NCBI RefSeq assembly: GCF_018977255.1
Contig: NW_024704742.1
Span: 64,296,001-64,360,000 of the forward strand
Direction of reading: 5' to 3'
DNA length: 64,000 nt
DNA from: Callorhinchus milii
Taxonomy: Eukaryota
The position numbers and the translations under genes were made by a program. Each line of letters opens with the position of its first letter. Within the stretch, counting starts at the first letter, position 1. This document shows, piece after piece, positions 2,319-30,165 of this stretch. Below the pieces are notes generated by a model. It searched no databases. It was not told where the DNA came from and saw nothing but the letters and a program-made list of their open reading frames with translations.

Positions 2319-2956
2319 TAATAATTATAATAATCCTTGCATTTGATATAATGGCTTACACGTCATTGAGGCATCTCAAAGCGCTTCACAGAATATACTG
2401 TAAAGTGAATTAACTGTGTATTTCTTGGGCAAAATGCGGCAGCCAATTACACACAGCAGTGTCCCACAAACAGTCGTGATGTGTTGATAAACACTTATTA
2501 ACATCATGGAAAAAGCAATCTGTCAGAGTCTTAAGACAGCACCTCCCTTCAACACTATTTGCAATGGTTGTGTATTGCTTGCATGTCATTTTATCAGACT
2601 GCTGGGAAGCAGGAAAAAAGGAATAACAGTTTAATTTAGCAAAAAATACCAAAATAAATCAGACCAGATGCCCTGTAATCCTCAATCCAATGTTAAGTGC
2701 AGTTGACTTCTGGGTGCAATTATTGTGAATGGATCAAGGGAGTTTCCTTTCAGCGCATCAACAATTACTACTTTGGTGGGGGGTTGGGGTGCTGGGTGAA
2801 ATAGGGACCTCTGATCTGTTAATTAACACCAAGGTTAATTAACACATTATTATCAGGGGGAGGGAATCTGCATAATTGGAACAGCCTCAACTCCAGGAGG
2901 AGGGGAAATGGGGTATATGGAAGAGCTTAGATTTTCCAGAGGGAAGGTATCTACAT

Positions 2957-3378
2957 GGAGTCCTGTAGCATATTGGTTAGAGCACTCACCTTGCATGCGA
3001 GAGGACCTTGTGACGTCCTCCCGACGTGAAAGTTGCTCTATAAATGTAATTTTGTTGTTGCTGAACTGGGTTTGATTCCCGTGCGGAGCCTAAAACCTTA
3101 GGCAAGTCTCCTTACCACACACCTCTGTTTACCAAGCAGTAAGTAGGAACCCGGTTGTTAATCAATTGGCAGATCGCTTTCCGAGGGTAATAATCCCTTC
3201 AAAAAAATAATAATAGTTCGGTCACAATTCACGACTGTTTGTGGGACATTGCTGTGTGCAATTGGCTGCTGCATTTCGCTCACAAAATATACAATCAATT
3301 CACTTTATAGTGAATGTGAAATGCTTTGAGATGTCTCAACAACGTGATAAGGCATTGTATCAAATGCAAGGATTATTT
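2957..3378 (+). mobile_element. tRNA(Ala-like)-head SINE with L2-type tail, long variant; head split by an approximately 50-bp L2 tail insertion
   Basis: ggagtcctgtagc..tggttagagcactc..ttgca A-box region, B-box-like gggtttgattcc, 3' atcaaatgcaaggattatt. Confidence 0.85.
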
Positions 3379-16349: not shown

Positions 16350-16995
16350 TCCTTCCCCACATCGAGTACCTGACCAGGATCGCCTTCCTCCACCTCCGCC
16401 ACATTGCCCCCCCTCTAACAGTACCTTACCCCAAATGCAGCTGAAACCCTATTGCATGTGTTAGTCACCTCCCGCCTGGATTACTCAAACGCACTCCTCG
16501 TCGGTCTCCCCAGCTCCACTATTCAAAATATCCAGCTCATTCAGAACCTCTGCCGCCCACATACTGACCTGGACCAAACCCCGTACCCATGTCTCCCCAG
16601 TTCTAGCCAGGCTCCACTGGCTCCCCATCATCAAATGGATTGACTTCAAGATCCTCACTTTTGTGTTCAAATCCATTCACTCACTGGCACCTCCCTACCT
16701 CTCCGACCTCCTCACTCCTCAATCCACCATCTGGTACCTCCACTCGACTGGCACCGGTCTCCTGCTCATCCCTCGCACCCTCCGCCCCACCATCAGAGGT
16801 CATGCTTTCAGCCAATACTCTCCAAAACTCTGAAACACTTTCCCTCAATCCCGCCGCCTTGTCCCTTCTCTCTCCTCTTTCAAGCCCCATCTGAAAACTT
16901 TCCTGTTTGATCGTGCTTACAGCCACCTCTCCCTGGCTCAGAATCAGGCTCTGCCACTGTTAAGTGCTCTGTAACACAGGGTAGAGTTATTATAA
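16350..16995 (+). mobile_element. L2 LINE 3' fragment
   Basis: HVLVTSRLDYSNALLVGLP...IQLIQN motif and 3' tail. Confidence 0.85.
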
Positions 16996-21285: not shown

Positions 21286-21598
21286 AGCAGGAAATGGCAC
21301 AGCCAATTTGCACACAGCAGTGTCCAACAAACAACCATGGAGTGAATGATCAATTTTACTGGGGGATTGTTGACCAATATGATTAAATATTAAGGATATG
21401 TATGAGACGAAAGTGGCTTTGTTTAATGGTTTTCCTCTCTTCCTGTAATACTCAGGCTATAAAGCAATCTGGTCAGGCCGCACCTAGAGCCCTGGATACC
21501 GTCTGGTTACTACGATATAAGGGACTGCCCAGGCCCTAGAGACAGTGCAGAGAAGACCAACAAGGATGATCCCCAGTGTTTGAGGAATGACCTATGAG

Positions 21599-22942
21599 CT
21601 GGGCCAATAGAAAAGTGAGGGTGCACTCTCTCTGCATTTTCCACTACAACGGTCCTCGCCTGCTACAAACCTGCTACAAACATCCCCCTCAGGTACTAAC
21701 CTGTACTAACCTGTACACACAGTGCCCAGGCATCTCGTGCTGTTTGATCGCCGCCGCTACTATGGCCAGAGCGGCTCCGATCGCGCTTGCACAGAGCGGT
21801 CAATTCGGGGATTGTGGAAGCCCCGTTTGCAGAAAATCGACCTCGATAGGAAAAGCAGCTGCATCACACACTATTGTACTGCCACAAATTCTTGCTAAGT
21901 GCTGCACTATTCACATTAAAATATTTAGTATTTTGAACATAACTCCATTTTCAGGAAATATATACCTATAGTTTTAATCAGGGATGTTTCACTTTTTAGG
22001 TTGTACAATACAAAAATATCCAAACGTTTTTTGTAAATCCCGTGAGGAAGCCAAAGGGCAACACGTCTCATTTTCCATCTGTCCTTCAGATAGACCTGTA
22101 CTATATCCAGACCTTCATGAAGAAGGGGGCAGTTGTTTTTTCATGTTTGCTGTCACACAATTGACCATGTTGGCAAGCGTACCATTGATGAGCACTTGAA
22201 ATCTCGGAAATGTGAATGCAAGGCAGCGGCAATAGAGAAAAGCAATGTAGGTAAAATAATAACATATATTAAATGAAAATGTATCATTATTTGCTTTCAC
22301 TCTAATTTTGAAAAAATCTTAATTTGTGTGATTACAAAAGTTAATATCCCTCTTTTTTGACTGAATTTTAAAACAACCTCAGCAAGCAAAAGACAAATAG
22401 ACAGAACATTTCAAATGACAAATGCATCATGAAGATCAATTTTTATGTTTTCCTTTCTAGGTGGATCTGGACCTCAAAGACAACTTGCAACCTTCTCTAG
22501 AGCCACTGCATCATCTATGAAGAGGAAAAATTCATATTGGTCTTTGGGCAGTGTTTGACAAGAGCAGACATACCGTTTCAAAAAGCTCCTGCCTTCCAAG
22601 CGTTTCTATGCAAGTACACAAAACCAGGAGGGACTATTCCAACACCATCACAGCTTCGTACGTACTTTTGAAAGGTGTTATGTTCTGTTTTTGTTAAAGA
22701 AAATATTTATAAATCAGGGTTTTTTCCAACAATCTATGATGTGTTATTTCTTCATGTTTAGTTTTTAAAAATGAGAAAACAGAAAAAATGCAGGTTTAGC
22801 AGTAAAATGCGTCTCTCAATAGCACCAATCAACCCTCTGCAACTCTCTGCAAAATGTAACAATTTCTTCCGCAATTGCCACAGCATACGCAAAGCCCTCC
22901 GCAATTTTTCACCAATAGTTCCGCACTTTTCTATTGTCCCAG
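21599..22942 (+). mobile_element. Non-autonomous hAT-superfamily DNA transposon (CGGBP-related) inserted in a CR1 fragment
   Basis: TIRs ctgggccaatagaaaagtgagg (21599-21620) and ccgcacttttctattgtcccag (22921-22942), 20/22 complementary; perfect 8-bp TSD cctatgag (21591-21598, 22943-22950); CR1-like sequence resumes across the insertion. Confidence 0.9.
22075..22671 (+). pseudogene. Decayed two-exon CGGBP1-like (BED zinc finger + hAT DNA-binding region) coding remnant inside the transposon
   Basis: Exon A to 22250: PSDRPVLYPDLHEEGG/(K)LFFHVCCHTIDHVGKRTIDEHLKSRK...IEKSNV vs CGGBP1 PLDRVTEFGGELHEDGGKLFCTSCNVVLNHVRKSAISDHLKSKTH...EEQNV. Phase-1 GT-AG intron 22251-22460. Exon B: GSGPQRQLATF.../EKFILVFGQCLTRADIPFQKAPAFQAFLCKYTKPGGTIPTPSQLRTYF* vs VIQDFVKMCLEANIPLEKADHPAVRAFLSRHVKNGGSIPKSDQLRRAYL. 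At least two frameshifts. Confidence 0.85.
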
Positions 22943-25900
22943 CCTATGAGTAACAATTATACAAGCTAGGGCTCTTCAGTCTTGAAGACGACTCAGAGGG
23001 GAACTCTCAGAGGTGTACAAAATGGGATTGAAAATGTAAACCCAGATTAATATTTAGGATGCACCAAGACAGCAGAACAAAAGGGCATAGGTTGAGAGCT
23101 GCAAAGGACAATTTCAAGACAAACACCATAAAGTTTTCCTTTTTCCAGAGGATAATTAATAATAATAATCCTGGCATTTGATATTGCGCCTTGTCATGTC
23201 TTTGAGATGTCTCAAAGCGCTTCACAGAATATATTGTAAAGTGAATTGACTGTATATTTTGTGGGCGAAACGCAGGAACCAATTGCACACAGCAGTGTCC
23301 CACAAACAGTCATGGATTGAGTGACCAAATTTGTTTTACTTAATGACTGGAACTGGTTGCCAAGAAGGGTGGTTGAGGCCAGGACACTGGACTCATTTAA
23401 AAAGCAGCTTCATGTTGTGATAGGAGGACAGTAGGGTGGGTATTCTCAGAGATGAAATTAGAAAAGATTTCTTCATCCAAACTGATCTTGCGATCTGCAC
23501 ATGATGATAGTATGCATTGCAACAGTACATTGCTTTTCACTCAGGAAAGTGTACCCATGTTTGGGGTTTGATGTCTTCCCAGTTTTCAGATGTCTTCTGT
23601 CAGAGCCATGCTTGGCAACCATAACCCTGAACTCAATACCTGGAAAGCTTACAGAATCAATCATTAGAGGCAGAATGTAAGTGATCAATAGTAATCTGAT
23701 AAATGAGAATGAGTATCTCTCCAAGGAGAAAGTGTGTATTTCATTCCAGACAGAAGAGATATCTATGTGTTGCTAGGCTGACAAAGGAGTATAAATTGGT
23801 GTCTAATTGATGGCATTTGGCAGTGAACTGTAGTTTCTGGTCCTATTCTTGGTCCACATGGCAATGAATCTTGTAGTGAGTATAATATTAGTCTTGTCCC
23901 CCCTCGCAGTCTTGCTAACCCACTCACAGAGACACAGAAAACATCTTGCAGTGGAGATTATTGAAGGAATTTGCACAAAAAATCTCCTTCTATTTTATTT
24001 CCCATGTATTTAAATTGAAAACCCATACACCAATATTGCAAATATCCAACAATCCTCAACGTTAAAGGACCCAATTATGGGTGAACCACACAGTGAATGC
24101 GGACTTTTATGAGATATTTCCTGCTGTCTCTTGTGCAATTCTGAGAAAAGGAGGGCTGCTGCGTACAGTAATTACACTTTTATGAGTCTAAGGTTTGAGT
24201 ACAGAAATAAATGTTGTGACATCCTTCGTCTCCACTTAAGAAATATGTGAGTGACAAGTGATGGCAGAAGCACTCTTTGAATAATTTAAGCGATATGCAC
24301 TGATAGCAAGCTGGGAAGTGCGGCTATAACTAGGTCTTATTAGATGTTCTTTTAGTGCAGAAGCTGATCTCACAGTGCTAGCAGAATGCATATTTCTGCG
24401 GACTGCAACTCTATCCCAGTTAGGGAGCAAATTCTGCACACAACAGACTTAGTCTCCGGGTGAATTCTGTGAAACTACAGTTCAATACCAAATGCCATCA
24501 ATTAGACTCCAATTTTTACTCCCTTGTCAGCCTGGCAACACATGGATATCTCTCCTGTCTGTTGTTTCCTGGGAAATAAAGCCGAGCTTTAAACCAGGTG
24601 TCAGCCTAAATGTCAAAGCAGCACCTTGTGTTCTCTCACTCTCTCTTTCTTTCTCTCTGTCACCAACTTTCTCAATTAAATTTGCTCTGTGACCTTCTAA
24701 AATCTTACCAACTCACCTGCTCCATCCTCTAGGCAGGCACTGGCATGCTTCACATCCCTGGTTTGCCCACCCTAACATCAGCCTTTCTGCACTCGCCCAC
24801 ACACCCATTTCGGAGACCCTTCGCTTTGCCCCTTCCCTCGCCTGCTTCAAGGTCAGTCTCAAGACCTTCCTTTGACCACGCCTTTGGTCAACTTCCCACC
24901 CCCACACTCAACTCCTTAACCTCCATTTCTCTGAAATCCAACCTCAGGCCAAACCCTCAACTGTCCAGCACCTTAGTACATCGTCCCGACATGAAAGGTG
25001 CTATATATAAATGCAATTTGTTTGTTTTATTGCGGTGCTTTGTTATGTAATTGAAACTTCTCAAAGGGCTTCACAGGATTCTTACAGTAAAGTGCAGTGA
25101 CTACACAATTTACAGGCAAACACTAGCCAATTTGCACCCTGCATTGTCCCACGAAGAGTTATGAAGTGAATGTCCAATTTTATCTGGGAAATTGTTGGGC
25201 AGGACACTGGAGAAACTCTAATTTTTGAAGGGTCTTGAAGAAATACTGCTCATTAGCAGGATTTGGAAGGGCAGTCATTGGGAGCAGGAATTCTTCACAC
25301 TTGGCTCCTATTAACTGTTAAAACCAAAGCCATGAGCACAGTGGTCCTAGATGGTCAAGCAGCAGGAAGTTTGTCAGACAGTACCCCAATGCACACCTTG
25401 GGATCCCCAAGCCCCAGCTCTTGCCAAACTGTACCTAATACTCCCCGGAATTAGGTAGACAGGGAGCATCTCTCCAGGGAGAGAGTACACATTCCATTCC
25501 AAACACAGGGAAATTTCCATGGGTGAGTGTGAGGTTTGGATAGACTGAACCGGGATGATGGGATTCCTAGTGTCAGACACCAGGTCGATCAAAACAAATC
25601 GAAGAAATTCGAGAAGACCCGCTGAGGTTTTCATAAACATGAACTAAGGCAGAATAAATGTATTAATGGAATTTCAGCCGCTTGTTAATGAACAGGTGTT
25701 TCACTGTTGCAGTAATTTAAATGAATGGCTTTGGCCGTAAGCATTGAGCCCTTTTATGAGGAAATCAAACAGAATGACAATGAGATGCTCTGCGAACTGC
25801 AGAGAAGACAGCTGTCTCACCAGTTTGGCAGCTTTGCCATTGTTTATTTCAAACAGATATTTAGCAGGGTGGTGCAGCTCACTGAAACCCCATCACAGAC

Positions 25901-27384: not shown

Positions 27385-27730
27385 TAACAACAACAACAAC
27401 GAAATTACATTTATAGAGCACCTTTCACGTCAGGAGGACATCCCAAAGCGCTGAACAGTCAGGTGTCGGGGCCCGAGCATGGGGGAGGGATGGTGTAGGG
27501 GTGAGAGAAGGCAGAGAGGGAGACCAAAGGCACGGTCGAAGAGAAGGGTCTTGAGACCGGCCTTGAAGGAGGCACAGGAGGAAGTGAGGCGAAGGGACCG
27601 TGGGATGGAGTTCCAGAGTGTGAGGGCAGAGAGGCTGAAAGCCCGGCCACCGATGGTAGGGCGGATCGTGCGGAAGACATGGAGCAGACCGGAGCCCGAT
27701 GAACGGAGGGAGCGGGCAGGTTGGTAGGGT
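27385..27730 (-). mobile_element. L2 LINE 3' end
   Basis: Similar to 1305-1660; (TTG)n tail. Confidence 0.85.
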
Positions 27731-29444
27731 TGGTAATAATAAAGCCTAATATTACAGCAAAAATGCTACTGGAATATCAAGAGTAGCTTTGTTTCTATAA
27801 TTTTAAAATAAAAATGTTAAATATTTCTTTACAGAAGTGTAAACTTCAGCTTTCCCTGTTTTCCATCCCATGTGCCCAAGAACTTCATTCCCATGTACCC
27901 TGACAGGGCACCAACTCATATGTCTCTCCTGGATGTTAACCTAGAATCAATATAGTTGCCATTGCAATCACAGGCTGTATAATCATGAAGCAGTGTTGTC
28001 CACTTTTACGCTGATCTTAACAAAAATTATTTATGATCAATCTTCATTTGAGGCACTGCGCATAAATGGATGAGGTGTTAAACTGAGCTCCTTTTGTCTG
28101 CCTGTGGATATGGACATCAAAGGTCCCATGGCACTACTTGAAAAGAGAAGGAAGTTTCTACCAAGGTCATCATGCCAACAGCCCCTCAAAATAATATTGT
28201 TCACTCACTTCATGGCTGTTTGTGGGACATGGCTGTGCACAAAATGGCCTGCTACATTCACCTACAAACTATTATTCTTTACAATATATCCTGTGAAACA
28301 CTGTGAGATGCCCTTTCAACATGAAAGGCCAATACCAATATAAGGGTTATTATTGTTTTATAAATGGACTGGTGGAAGCTTTGGAATCCAGACAATTGTC
28401 AGAATGTCTTTCTGAATCAGAGCGTAATTTATTTATGCTCTTGTCAAATTCTTTGATTATGCAGTACTCTTCCTCCTGCTCCAACTTTCAAAGAACGACC
28501 AATATGCAGCATTTCATTCAGGGCTGAAAAAAACAAGCATAGAGTGCTTCAGTGCAAAGTATATTGTGGCACACCTTGAATGGGTACTCTTAACTTTAGG
28601 AAGCATGGATATTCTTAACAAAAGAAAGCAATCAACACAAAGGCAAACATTGAAAGATTGGAAACATTGATTTCTATTTTCCTGTGCGGCAGGACTGGAA
28701 ATTTCAGCTTGTCTGAGAAAGTTGTTTGTTAGTACTAATGAGCTGACAATAAAGGCAACTCACCACTGTGCAGGTCACCTTCATAAGGGCAACTCTAACT
28801 CAACCCTCATCCCAATCCTATGCTTTCTTTTTCCGGATTTCTGAGTATTTTATAGCCTATGAGCTGCTTTTTCTTATTGAACGCTGGAGTAAACTAACAC
28901 TTCAGCTGAAAATTAACTTTTTAACTGATTAAGTGGCTAAATCCCTGTGGAGATCAATTAAAGTTCCATTTCTGACCAAGGAATGTGCAGATTTTGTTCG
29001 TCCTCAGGAGATTAACACTGAATGATAAATAGCCAACAAAAAAAAACTTCAGAACCCAATTTAAAATGTTAAAAATTTACAAAAATAAAAATAGGCTTTC
29101 TCAGATCCCCCCAAATGGCTGGGAGCTGAAAAAGAATCTTAAAAAAATATTCACTGCCATCTGGGGTCAATAGTTAATGCTGGCAAAACATAAGGAATGC
29201 AGAAAATTGCCTCCACCCTCTTATTTTGCTCTTTGCTTGGATTTCAGATTCCTATTACTTTATTTAAAAATAAACCTTACATTAGTCGATCGGCAGATCA
29301 CATCCGGGGGTAATAATCACTCCCACCCCCCAAAAAAAGTGGTCACTCAATTCACGACTGGTTGTGGAACACTGCTGTGTGCAATTGACTTTACAATATA
29401 TTCTGTGAAGCATTTTGAGATGTCTTAACAACGTGATAAGGTGC

Positions 29445-30165
29445 TCAACCATGGATAGGATCTTACAACTCAATGTTGACAAGAAGGAAGTCATTCTCAT
29501 TGGCTCCCGTTAACATCTTCTATCCTGCGGATCTGACCTCTTCAACCTCCCTGGCCTATCCCTCAGACTTACCAAACCAGTGCACAACCTAAACGTCAAG
29601 TTCGACCTACAGCTGTGGTTCCTTCCCATATCCAGTCCCTGATCAGGACCACCTTCTTGCACCTCCGCCACATTGCCCACCTCCGACCATACCTTAACCC
29701 AGACCCAGGCGAAACACTCGTACATGTGCTCGCCACCTCCTGACTGGACTTCTCAAATGCCTTCTTTGCTGTCTCTCCAGCTCCACCATGTACAAGATCG
29801 AGCTGATTCAAAACTCTGCCGCCTGTACACTCATCAGAACAGTTCTAGCCAGGTTCCACTGACTCCCCATCACTGAACGGGTCGATTTCAAGATCCTCAC
29901 ACTCGTTTTCAAATCTTTTCATGCCTTGGCACCTCCCTACCTCTTCAACCTGCTTACCCCCCAACTCACAACCTGCTCTTCATCTATCCCTCCACCTTGC
30001 CACCTCCTTTCCCATTTTCAAGTCGCACCTGAAGACCTTCCTATTCAACCATGCCTTTGGTCACCTCCCCCTCCACCCAGCTCAGAGTCGTACTCCACCA
30101 CTGTCAAGCATTCTGGGACGCTACCTTGTGTGAGGGGTGTTATATAAATGCAAGTTGCTGTTGTT
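29445..30165 (+). mobile_element. L2 LINE 3' fragment, decayed
   Basis: Similar to the other L2 copies; tail ataaatgcaagttgctgttg. Confidence 0.8.

What the first reader, a model, noticed from the sequence alone, without database searches (positions are those of the whole stretch)
21591..22950. Complete TIR/TSD-bounded hAT transposon carrying an intron-containing CGGBP1-like gene remnant
Seen: 22-bp TIRs (20/22), a perfect 8-bp TSD (cctatgag), insertion into a CR1 fragment, and two GT-AG-joined exons. After two frameshift corrections these align along most of CGGBP1 as I remember it (LHEEGG-KLF-xxxC..IDHVGKRTIDEHLKS; ADIPFQKA..FQAFL..KPGGTIPTPSQLR). Known: CGGBP proteins are considered domesticated from hAT transposases, and an 8-bp TSD is typical of hAT. 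Inference: this is a mobile relative of the CGGBP ancestor preserved with its ends. It lacks the RNase H catalytic domain and its homology stops about where amniote CGGBP1 ends, so a DNA-binding-only cassette may have travelled non-autonomously. The TIR starts CTGGG rather than the usual (C/T)AG.
Basis: partly seen in the sequence, partly recalled or inferred. Interest (0 to 1): 0.85.

Follow-up and report, generated by a model that had tools for sequence, protein, structure and literature searches.

The report
Dead, internally deleted hAT transposon copy
This is a real but long-dead cut-and-paste (hAT) transposon copy that lost its enzyme-coding middle, so the "CGGBP1-like gene" inside it is only the DNA-binding front end of its own transposase; it is an ordinary member of a family of about a thousand copies.

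Summary
There is a 1,344-bp element at 21599-22942 with 22-bp inverted ends (20/22) and a perfect 8-bp duplication, CCTATGAG. It sits inside a LINE fragment and carries two GT-AG-joined exon remnants.

It is one copy of an old family in a roughly 1-Gb chimaera genome (Callorhinchus milii-like). The end sequence occurs 1,802 times, against 6 for a control. Copies lie about 10% from their consensus.

Full-length members are 2.66-2.9 kb, with the same ends and 8-bp duplications. They encode a decayed two-exon hAT transposase of about 580 aa. In them, exon 2 runs straight on from the window's last coding residues into the catalytic core and the hAT dimerisation region.

The window copy is therefore a Ds-like internal-deletion derivative. 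Its break lies at about 22666. Other copies carry at least three other breaks, and no other copy found shares this junction.

The coding remnant is dead: ATG is now ATA, there are at least three frameshifts, and two zinc ligands are lost.

The N-terminus is CGGBP-type. A family profile matches fish proteins named CGGBP1 at E 4e-34, as published for hAT-19 elements (Yellan 2021). Amniote CGGBP1 itself was never retrieved.

The idea of a dedicated mobile DNA-binding cassette is not supported. The element is a new member of a known kind and of low interest.

The parts
21440..21590 (+). Left part of the interrupted LINE (CR1/L2-like) 3' fragment
   Evidence: 960 first-look candidates in the genome. 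It is colinear with 4 of 4 paralogs across the insertion point. The translation contains LVRPHLE. The CR1 label was not tested.
21591..21598 (.). Target-site duplication, left copy (CCTATGAG)
   Evidence: Read directly. Paralogs of the LINE have a single GCTATGAG-like 8-mer at this point.
21599..21620 (+). Left terminal inverted repeat (22 bp, starts CTGGG)
   Evidence: Inverted repeat I1. The motif is unique to the two ends within the window. There are 930+872 genome matches at up to 2 mismatches, against 2+4 for the control.
21621..22015 (+). 5' subterminal and leader region; includes CCTGCTACAAA twice in tandem at 21659-21680 (family motif CCGCTACAAA)
   Evidence: D15. The hexamers CGCTAC and CTACAA are 33-36 times enriched in the left subterminal 180 bp of 16 copies, relative to their interiors.
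22016..22250 (+). Exon 1 remnant (N-terminus plus a C-x2-C...H-x5-H zinc finger). The start codon has decayed to ATA. There is an extra T at 22027-22032, a 1-bp loss in the G run 22125-22129, Cys to Phe at 22139-22141, and a His codon lost after 22210.
   Evidence: ORF pieces. Alignment with 15 other copies. BLASTP to the CGGBP1-named P0172, E 6e-7.
22251..22460 (+). The transposase gene's own intron (GT...AG, 210 bp, phase 1)
   Evidence: Read directly. The donor GT is kept in 13 of 15 copies. In long copies, full-length relatives align on both sides of a roughly 250-bp gap.
22461..22666 (+). Exon 2 remnant (helical DNA-binding region, ...ADIPFQKAPAFQAFLCKYTKPGGTIPTPSQLR TY); 1-bp loss at 22528/22529
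   Evidence: BLASTP to P0172, E 1e-5. tblastn aligns P0151 residues 95-144 here.
22666..22667 (.). Internal deletion junction. About 1.33 kb of the full-length element is missing: the rest of exon 2, meaning the catalytic core and the hAT dimerisation region. The junction lies inside an imperfect short direct repeat (ACTTGAAGG / CTTTTGAAAGG).
   Evidence: Alignment with five full-length and ten shorter copies. The junction is spanned only by the window's own locus among 43 matches.
22668..22920 (+). 3' non-coding tail with subterminal repeats YCYGCA(A/C) at 22836, 22846, 22868, 22898 and 22920
   Evidence: CCGCAA is about 149 times enriched in the right subterminal 180 bp of 16 copies, relative to their interiors.
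22921..22942 (-). Right terminal inverted repeat
22943..22950 (.). Target-site duplication, right copy (CCTATGAG)
22951..23150 (+). Right part of the interrupted LINE fragment
   Evidence: It continues the paralog alignment without a break.

Best explanation
Window 21599-22942 is a decayed, non-autonomous copy of an old hAT DNA-transposon family of a chimaera genome (Callorhinchus milii-like).

The family's full-length form is about 2.7 kb. It carries a two-exon gene for a transposase of about 580 aa. That protein has an N-terminal zinc finger plus a helical DNA-binding region (the part that resembles CGGBP proteins), an RNase-H-like catalytic core (...LDETTD..., ...ATDSASYM..., CIAHLLNL) and a C-terminal hAT dimerisation region.

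The window copy kept both ends, the subterminal CCGC-containing repeats, exon 1, the intron and the first 69 or so codons of exon 2. It lost about 1.33 kb between two short look-alike words. This is the usual outcome of interrupted gap repair or slippage, as in maize Ds.

Shown: the ends, the duplication, the uninterrupted paralogous target, the family, the full-length partners, the different break points, and the mutational death of the coding remnant.

Inferred: the copy, or its full-length parent at this site, was inserted by a transposase supplied by full-length members, with an 8-bp staggered cut. That transposase recognises the subterminal CCGC repeats through the CGGBP-type domain. The deletion arose by microhomology-mediated repair. 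Today the element does nothing.
For: Ends and duplication.

Empty-site paralogs: 4 of 4.

Family size: 1,186 first-look candidates, with 64 matches at 75-84% identity. The end motif has 930 forward and 872 reverse matches, against 2 and 4 for the control.

8-bp duplications elsewhere: of 18 distinct end-paired copies, 6 are perfect, 5 have one mismatch, 3 have two and 4 have four or more. One more perfect case is L071.

Full-length copies with both ends: L036 2,675 bp, L041 2,662, L046 2,911, L048 2,670 and L063 2,800.

Colinearity with complete hAT transposases: in L041, P0151 residues 1-66, 73-552 (E 1.6e-84) and 539-580 all align. P0151, P0030, P0027, P0038 and P0004 all carry Pfam Dimer_Tnp_hAT above its cut-off (5 of 5).

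Continuation of exon 2 past the window's break occurs in 7 of 21 copies. Six share break A (after DETTD), 5 share break B (after EDTDV) and 3 run into unrelated DNA. L002 has yet another break.

Age: the window copy has K2P 0.111 to the 16-copy majority, while 12 of the other 15 lie at 0.09-0.12 and L029, L062 and L065 are higher. The tree is star-like, with internal branches of at most 0.02.

Damage to the coding remnant.

CGGBP-type N-terminus: and PMC8097297 (main text read).
Against: Pfam found no family above its cut-off in any piece of this family. Zero of 8 pieces scored. The best C-terminal piece gave Dimer_Tnp_hAT at 15.1 bits against a cut-off of 21.4, E 0.021. zf-BED never scored. 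The hAT assignment therefore rests on colinearity with relatives, not on a direct domain hit.

The ends begin CTGGG, not the YARNG that I recall as usual for hAT.

No intact copy was found. The longest open frame among 68 matches was 246 aa, and the best exon 2 (L041) has 6 stops in 468 codons. So the 'autonomous partner' is inferred from decayed copies.

The copies examined were chosen by similarity to the window element, which favours copies that keep its 5' 1,060 bp.
Confidence: 0.93

Rival explanations
1. The element would be a purpose-built mobile cassette that carries only a CGGBP-like DNA-binding gene and spreads non-autonomously in that form, with its homology ending where CGGBP1 ends.
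For: Deletion class A creates a stop codon exactly at its junction (...DETTD then TGA), giving an ORF of about 180 aa that contains only the DNA-binding part. That class sits at several sites: 6 of the 21 copies read share it, and of the four of these with paired ends (L003, L009, L012, L026), L009 has a perfect duplication and L026 two mismatches.
Against: The window's own junction is spanned by 1 of 43 matches, and that one is the window itself. One further match runs 22 bases past the junction at 86% identity, but it lies inside a 3,027-bp copy.

Break points differ between classes.

Nine perfectly matching end pairs, read by eye from the first 100 places, span 521-3,027 bp. Five of them are under 1.1 kb, too short to hold both exons.

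The deletion classes do not form clades. The coding remnant is as decayed as the non-coding parts.
Confidence: 0.04
2. The locus would be, or recently was, a working host gene: a domesticated CGGBP-like DNA-binding protein or a KP-like repressor of the family.
For: Public annotation holds short gene models on sister copies: P0002 on L005, P0003 on L009, P0161 on L013 and P0001 on L041. The predicted fold of one such model is confident, with mean pLDDT 85.4.
Against: In the window copy the start codon is lost, there are at least three frameshifts, and one Cys and one His of the finger are gone. The ends and the duplication are intact, and the copy is one of roughly 900. Divergence from the consensus matches that of the other copies. 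No expression data were examined.
Confidence: 0.02
3. This is a rival on one detail only. The window copy would not have been cut down from a full-length element in one step. It would derive instead from a class-A derivative (about 1.46 kb) through a second deletion of about 110 bp spanning the class-A junction.
For: The retained sequence on both sides lies within what class A retains, and the missing stretch relative to class A is only about 110 bp.
Against: The deletion removes the class-A junction itself, so no diagnostic base is left. The window copy does not group with class-A copies in the tree, although the tree is unresolved.
Confidence: 0.3

Closest known systems
hAT-19-type hAT transposons with a CGGBP1-like N-terminus (e.g. 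hAT-19_Crp, hAT-13_LCh; Yellan, Yang & Hughes 2021, PMC8097297; Frith 2022, PMC9004415, passages only)
   Same: Both have a hAT transposase whose N-terminal zinc finger plus helical domain resembles CGGBP proteins. Both have 8-bp duplications. The subterminal repeats contain CGG/CCG (here YCCGCAA and CCGCTACAAA); the paper reports that the binding motifs of hAT-encoded CGGBP domains match the subterminal regions of their elements. Relatives named CGGBP1 or CGGBP1-like are hit at E 1.8e-34 and 3.8e-34.
   Different: Membership of the hAT-19 subgroup could not be tested, because no Repbase or Dfam library is available here. The host is a chimaera. The paper's main text names no cartilaginous fish among its hosts, and 'Callorhinchus' has 0 occurrences in the 8,858 characters of its supplement that are held. 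The ends start CTGGG.
Maize Ac/Ds: an autonomous hAT element and its internal-deletion derivatives (textbook knowledge, recalled)
   Same: The ends match those of the full-length element. The interior is colinear except for one gap. Break points vary between copies. Some deletion classes were mobilised to new sites in trans.
   Different: Here every copy, long or short, is about 10% diverged and broken, so nothing is active now.
Amniote CGGBP1 (a host gene of about 167 aa; the length is recalled)
   Same: Both show the same two-part DNA-binding architecture. The truncated ORFs of deletion classes A and B are of similar size.
   Different: The window element is multi-copy, bounded by inverted repeats and a duplication, and mutationally dead. 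It lies in a non-amniote. The amniote protein was never retrieved, so no direct alignment was made.
KP elements of the Drosophila P family: deletion derivatives that encode a DNA-binding-only repressor (recalled)
   Same: Both are internal deletions that leave an ORF for only the DNA-binding N-terminus of the transposase.
   Different: KP belongs to a different superfamily. No evidence for repressor activity or expression was sought or found here.

Membership tests
hAT superfamily DNA transposon | 8-bp target-site duplication | tested here: met
   The window copy's duplication is perfect. Fourteen of 18 distinct end-paired copies have at most 2 mismatches, and 6 are perfect. L071 is also perfect. 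The empty-site check holds in 4 of 4 paralogs. The observed 8-mers read about GYNATNRC, which is compatible with the nTnnnnAn preference I recall for Ac-type hATs.
hAT superfamily DNA transposon | Short terminal inverted repeats shared by the family | tested here: met
   The repeats are 22 bp with 20 of 22 matching. There are 1,802 genome matches to the 19-mer, against 6 for the control.
hAT superfamily DNA transposon | Ends beginning YARNG (motif recalled) | tested here: not met
   The family ends begin CTGGG, or TTGGG in some copies. Position 2 is T, not A; positions 1, 3 and 5 fit the motif.
hAT superfamily DNA transposon | Transposase with the C-terminal hAT dimerisation region (Pfam PF05699), tested directly on this family | tested here: inconclusive
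   L048:479-703 gives PF05699 as the only family, at E 0.021 and 15.1 bits against a cut-off of 21.4. The piece ends at a stop codon. L036:7325-7591 gave nothing.
hAT superfamily DNA transposon | Full-length colinearity of the family's long copies with proteins that meet the Pfam hAT criterion | tested here: met
   P0151, P0030, P0027, P0038 and P0004 all have PF05699 above its cut-off. P0151 aligns to L041 over residues 1-66, 73-552 and 539-580. P0151 residues 486-582 align in L048 and 533-580 in L063.
hAT superfamily DNA transposon | N-terminal BED-type zinc finger | tested here: inconclusive
   Pfam zf-BED never scored. A C-x2-C...H-x5-H pattern is conserved in 16 aligned copies. The model shows a beta-beta-beta-alpha finger at residues 29-58. 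The best fold matches are U1/matrin-type fingers at Z 5.0-6.1, and the ZBED1 BED domain appears only at Foldseek E 5.9. The ESM Atlas lists zf-BED clusters at 0.92-0.93.
CGGBP-type domain / hAT-19 subgroup | Significant similarity to proteins named CGGBP1 | tested here: met
   [quoted passage not shown] The window pieces score E 6e-7 and 1e-5. All of these named proteins are from fish.
CGGBP-type domain / hAT-19 subgroup | Similarity to amniote CGGBP1 itself, or a hit by the Panther/InterPro CGGBP1 model | not testable with these tools
   Three word-indexed searches returned no amniote CGGBP1. Only the best 150 of the 201 profile hits were listed, and only 10 of those were looked up for names, none amniote. 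No Panther library is held.
CGGBP-type domain / hAT-19 subgroup | Placement in Repbase/Dfam class hAT-hAT19 | not testable with these tools
   No repeat library is available. The placement is inferred only from the paper's statement that the CGGBP1 model hits 29 of 824 hATs, mainly hAT-19 (13 of 16) (PMC8097297).
Domesticated CGGBP host gene | Single-copy gene without transposon ends and with an intact reading frame | tested here: not met
   The ends and the duplication are present. There are roughly 900 copies. The start codon is lost and there are at least three frameshifts.
Non-autonomous internal-deletion derivative (Ds-like) | Same ends as the full-length element, with the interior colinear except for one gap | tested here: met
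   Multiple alignment of 16 copies.
Non-autonomous internal-deletion derivative (Ds-like) | The same junction found at other, independent sites, which would show that the deleted form itself moved | tested here: not met
   For the window's junction, only its own locus spans it among 43 matches. For class A the feature is met: 6 of the 21 copies read share it, and L009 has a perfect duplication.

The most novel reading that the evidence does not exclude
Internal-deletion derivatives of CGGBP-type (hAT-19-like) transposons may routinely leave a spliced ORF of about 140-180 aa for just the zinc finger plus helical DNA-binding domain. In class A the deletion itself supplies the stop codon.

Such Ds-like copies, and not full-length elements, could be the raw material from which CGGBP-type host genes arose again and again. 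They may first have acted as KP-like repressors that compete for the subterminal CCGC repeats.

A corollary follows. Some of the short, intron-containing 'CGGBP genes' counted in fish and coelacanth annotations may still be end-bounded deletion derivatives, as at least four Callorhinchus gene models are here (P0001, P0002, P0003 and P0161).
Probability: 0.15. Interest if true: 0.5.

Novelty: new member of a known kind. Interest (0 to 1): 0.2.

Why it matters
On its own the locus matters little. It is one dead copy among roughly 900 of an extinct transposon family.

Three modest points remain. First, it documents a CGGBP-type hAT family, with full-length and deleted members, in a cartilaginous fish. 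I did not see that lineage named in the main text of the paper that described such elements.

Second, several public 'uncharacterized protein' entries of Callorhinchus milii are gene models laid on these transposon fragments. That is a caution for counts of 'domesticated' CGGBP genes.

Third, it gives a concrete picture of how a DNA-binding-only ORF of CGGBP1 size can arise in one step, by an internal deletion.

Tried and rejected
Pfam on eight open pieces of the window and of long copies gave nothing above cut-off. The only related weak hit was DUF659 at 16.3 bits.

PDB sequence searches with the exon-1 and exon-2 profiles gave 0 hits and one irrelevant hit at E 0.34.

Fold search of the AlphaFold model of P0008 with alignment A4 (pLDDT 85.4, pTM 0.48) was not decisive. 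Foldseek found 0 matches at E <= 0.001, with top rows of spliceosomal U1/matrin-type zinc-finger proteins. VIA-align wide gave a best Z of 6.1. The zinc-finger half resembles the TUT4 and SF3A fingers. The helical half resembles helix-turn-helix DNA-binding domains (sigma region 4, LuxR type, Mos1, SETMAR, TnsB) at Z 4-6, which the tool says is within the range of common arrangements. Hermes did not appear, so this says nothing either way.

The 1,342-bp element at C1:115035181 was suspected of sharing the window's structure. It shares only the ends (query 1-76 and 1089-1344) and has an unrelated interior.

Other superfamilies with 8-bp duplications (P, Merlin, Zisupton; recalled) were rejected because the transposase is hAT-like.

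Earlier notes of this scan held nothing on this family.

Literature searches for a description of this family found none: terms 'Callorhinchus milii', 'hAT', 'DNA transposons', 'non-autonomous' and 'hAT19', 'hAT-19', 'CGGBP'. I read only the listings for these. Repbase and Dfam entries are not papers and could not be checked.


Full report
WHAT IS THERE. The arms 21598-21620 and 22921-22943 are the longest inverted repeat in the region, at 23 nt and 91% complementary. Without the outer G/C pair, the terminal repeat is 22 bp with 20 matches. The 19-base end motif occurs only at these two places in the 64-kb window, against 0.01 expected. CCTATGAG stands directly outside both ends, at 21591-21598 and 22943-22950.

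The flanks belong to a very abundant repeat, with 960 first-look candidates. In a script I put the two flanks together with a single copy of the 8-mer. The result aligned without a break to 4 of 4 paralogous copies, which have GCTATGAG-like sequence at that point. That is as good a proof of insertion with an 8-bp duplication as paralogs can give. I did not test whether the repeat is CR1. Its translation contains LVRPHLE, which I recall from the ORF2 tail of CR1/L2-clade LINEs.

THE CODING REMNANT. Aligned with 15 other copies, they give the following layout. The family start codon is at 22016-22018. Exon 1 runs to 22250. The intron is 22251-22460 (GT...AG, phase 1, pyrimidine tract). Exon 2 starts at 22461.

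The window copy is broken in many places:
- ATG has become ATA, while 9 of the 14 copies that cover the site keep ATG.
- There is an extra T in the run 22027-22032.
- Three bases are lost before 22110.
- One base is lost in the G run 22125-22129.
- The first zinc-ligand Cys is now Phe (22139-22141).
- The second His codon is deleted after 22210.
- One base is lost at 22528/22529.
The donor GT is kept in 13 of 15 copies.

THE FAMILY. The window lies in a genome of 991.5 Mb. A DNA search with the element gave 1,186 first-look candidates and 64 matches at 75-84% identity. The 19-base end motif, allowing up to 2 mismatches, has 930 forward and 872 reverse matches, against 2 and 4 for the reversed control. 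That points to roughly 900 copies.

Among the loci I fetched, 18 distinct elements have both ends. Their flanking 8-mers are identical in 6, differ by one base in 5, by two in 3, and by four or more in 4. L071 adds another perfect one. The 8-mers read about GYNATNRC.

Divergence from a 16-copy majority consensus is K2P 0.111 for the window copy and 0.09-0.12 for 12 of the other 15. L029, L062 and L065 are higher, at 0.16-0.31, and the alignment of L029 and L062 is partly poor. A tree of 13 copies is a star, with terminal branches of 0.09-0.13 and internal branches of at most 0.02 (I left out L029, L062 and L065). This indicates one old burst of activity.

THE KEY RESULT. I read 21 other copies past the point where the window's homology to CGGBP-like proteins stops (after ...TIPTPSQLR). 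In 7 of them the same reading frame continues: NTYLKELIPEHEAFLKKHVEDTDVYLFLDETTDSSGRSVLAVLAQPLQKVGEKPLLIGVEF... Six break after DETTD (class A), 5 break after EDTDV (class B) and 3 run into unrelated DNA. L002 has another break, and L059 looks to have yet another.

Five copies with both ends measure 2,662-2,911 bp, and two of them have perfect duplications. Along these copies, complete hAT transposases from other animals align colinearly. P0151 (585 aa, a sea bass protein) covers L041 with residues 1-66, 73-552 (one segment, E 1.6e-84) and 539-580. P0030 (sea urchin) and P0027 behave alike. All five long relatives tested carry Pfam Dimer_Tnp_hAT above its cut-off, and three carry DUF659 above its cut-off.

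The family is therefore a hAT family with a two-exon transposase gene of about 580 codons. The window element is a copy that lost about 1.33 kb of it. The junction, at about 22666, lies inside an imperfect direct repeat (ACTTGAAGG on the left, CTTTTGAAAGG on the right). Classes A and B also join at 2-4 bases of microhomology. This is the pattern expected from interrupted gap repair or slippage; that step is inference.

No copy is intact. The longest open frame among 68 protein-level matches is 246 aa. The best exon 2 (L041) has 6 stops in 468 codons.

DID THE 'CASSETTE' TRAVEL? A 91-base probe across the window's junction is spanned fully only by the window's own locus among 43 matches. One other match runs 22 bases past the junction at 86% identity, but it lies within a 3,027-bp copy, so it does not carry the deletion. 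A 1,342-bp element that I suspected of sharing the structure shares only the ends. So there is no sign that this particular form moved after the deletion. The deletion may have happened in place, or in the event that made this copy.

Class A did move, since the same junction is found at several sites. That is what any Ds-like element does.

The apparent clustering of break points just after the DNA-binding part is at least partly a sampling effect. I chose copies by similarity to the window element. Nine perfectly matching end pairs, read by eye from the first 100 places, measure 521, 614, 720, 838, 1,022, 1,315, 1,342, 1,556 and 3,027 bp. Five of these are too short to hold both exons.

RELATION TO CGGBP. 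A profile of exon 2 was searched against 1.84 billion representatives and found 201 proteins at E <= 0.001. The top short hits are UniRef 'uncharacterized proteins' of Callorhinchus milii. They match my loci at 98-100% identity: P0002 on L005, P0003 on L009, P0161 on L013 and P0001 on L041. So they are gene models laid on copies of this family, and the genome is that species or a very close relative.

[quoted passage not shown] The two window pieces align to that protein in the right order, at E 6e-7 and 1e-5. The ESM Atlas puts P0002 nearest a cluster auto-named CGGBP1-like, with score 0.96 and 192 of 256 features shared; that is a lead only.

No call returned amniote CGGBP1 (only 10 of the hits were looked up for names). 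My own recollection agrees with it.

The literature already states the connection. Yellan et al. 2021 (PMC8097297; I read parts 1 and 2 of 3, that is the main text and the start of the references) report that the CGGBP1 domain model hits 29 of 824 hAT entries, mainly hAT-19 (13 of 16). They also report that the binding motifs of hAT-encoded CGGBP domains match the subterminal regions of their elements, and that most annotated CGGBPs contain introns and/or are shorter than 200 aa. Frith 2022 (PMC9004415, passages only) speaks of the hAT19 origin of CGGBP1 and notes that hATs have 8-bp duplications, except hAT5.

In keeping with this, the family's subterminal repeats contain CCG/CGG. YCCGCAA occurs 1-5 times in the last 200 bp of 15 of 16 copies, and CCGCAA is about 149 times enriched over the interior. 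CCGCTACAAA stands on the left.

HOW IT WORKED (INFERRED). The full-length element's transposase bound the subterminal CCGC repeats and the 22-bp ends through its zinc finger and helical domain. It cut the element out and inserted it with an 8-bp staggered cut. Deleted copies that kept the ends and the subterminal repeats were moved in trans. The window copy is such a relic and has no function that I can see. The neighbourhood (14-31 kb) holds only repeat-like open frames and no tandem repeats.

WHAT DID NOT WORK. Pfam never scored above cut-off on the family's own pieces. PDB sequence searches found nothing. The fold searches were inconclusive. The 'YARNG' start that I recall for hAT ends is not met at position 2 (CTGGG).

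VERDICT. The element is a new member of a known kind, possibly already present in repeat libraries that I could not consult. Interest is low.

The boldest reading left open is that such deletion derivatives, some of which end their ORF exactly at the junction, are the usual starting material for CGGBP-type host genes. A corollary is that some annotated 'CGGBP genes' are still transposon fragments. I give this about 15%.

Noticed in passing
L005, L009, L013/L033, L041 (G000:C3:17.98 Mb, C1:86.0 Mb, C7:0.02 Mb, C6:15.34 Mb): At least four UniRef 'uncharacterized protein' entries of Callorhinchus milii (P0002, P0003, P0161, P0001) are gene models on decayed copies of this transposon family, matching at 98-100% identity over 54-154 aa. 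P0008 and P0036 look like further cases, but none of my loci matched them at 97% or more.
   Followed up: partly
L071 (G000:C1:115035181-115036522): A 1,342-bp element has the same ends and a perfect 8-bp duplication (ATTATGGC). Only about 75 bp on one side and 230-255 bp on the other are homologous to the family, and about 1 kb of the interior is unrelated. It is either a second non-autonomous subfamily that uses the same ends or a copy that captured other DNA.
   Followed up: partly
L021 and L023 (G000:C16:8.886 Mb and 8.440 Mb); L036 and L038 (C5:43.96 and 45.10 Mb): L021 and L023 are almost identical downstream of the shared region, including the same small deletion, and lie in opposite orientation 450 kb apart. 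This looks like a segmental duplication, not two insertions. L038 is 89-93% identical in protein to L036, much closer than other pairs.
   Followed up: no
G000 contigs C12, C13, C16, C19 at about 8.1-9.5 Mb: Copies of this family and paralogs of the flanking LINE pile up in these intervals of the small contigs. These may be repeat-rich, perhaps pericentromeric, blocks.
   Followed up: no
window 16465-16833 (+), 29863-30147 (+), probably 27430-27765 (-); also nested in L032 at about 2700-3130: Another abundant repeat has an ORF-like stretch (...LARLHWLPI..IDFKILTLVFKS.H.LAPPYLSDLLTP...). One copy is inserted into a long copy of the hAT family. It was not identified.
   Followed up: no
window 21659-21680 and 21693-21712: There are two perfect tandem duplications in the left subterminal region: CCTGCTACAAA twice and GTACTAACCT twice (D15 and D18). 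The first is the CpG-decayed form of the family's left subterminal motif.
   Followed up: partly
window 23153-23170: The flanking LINE fragment is followed by a short AAT run (ataattaataataataat), possibly the LINE's 3' microsatellite tail.
   Followed up: no
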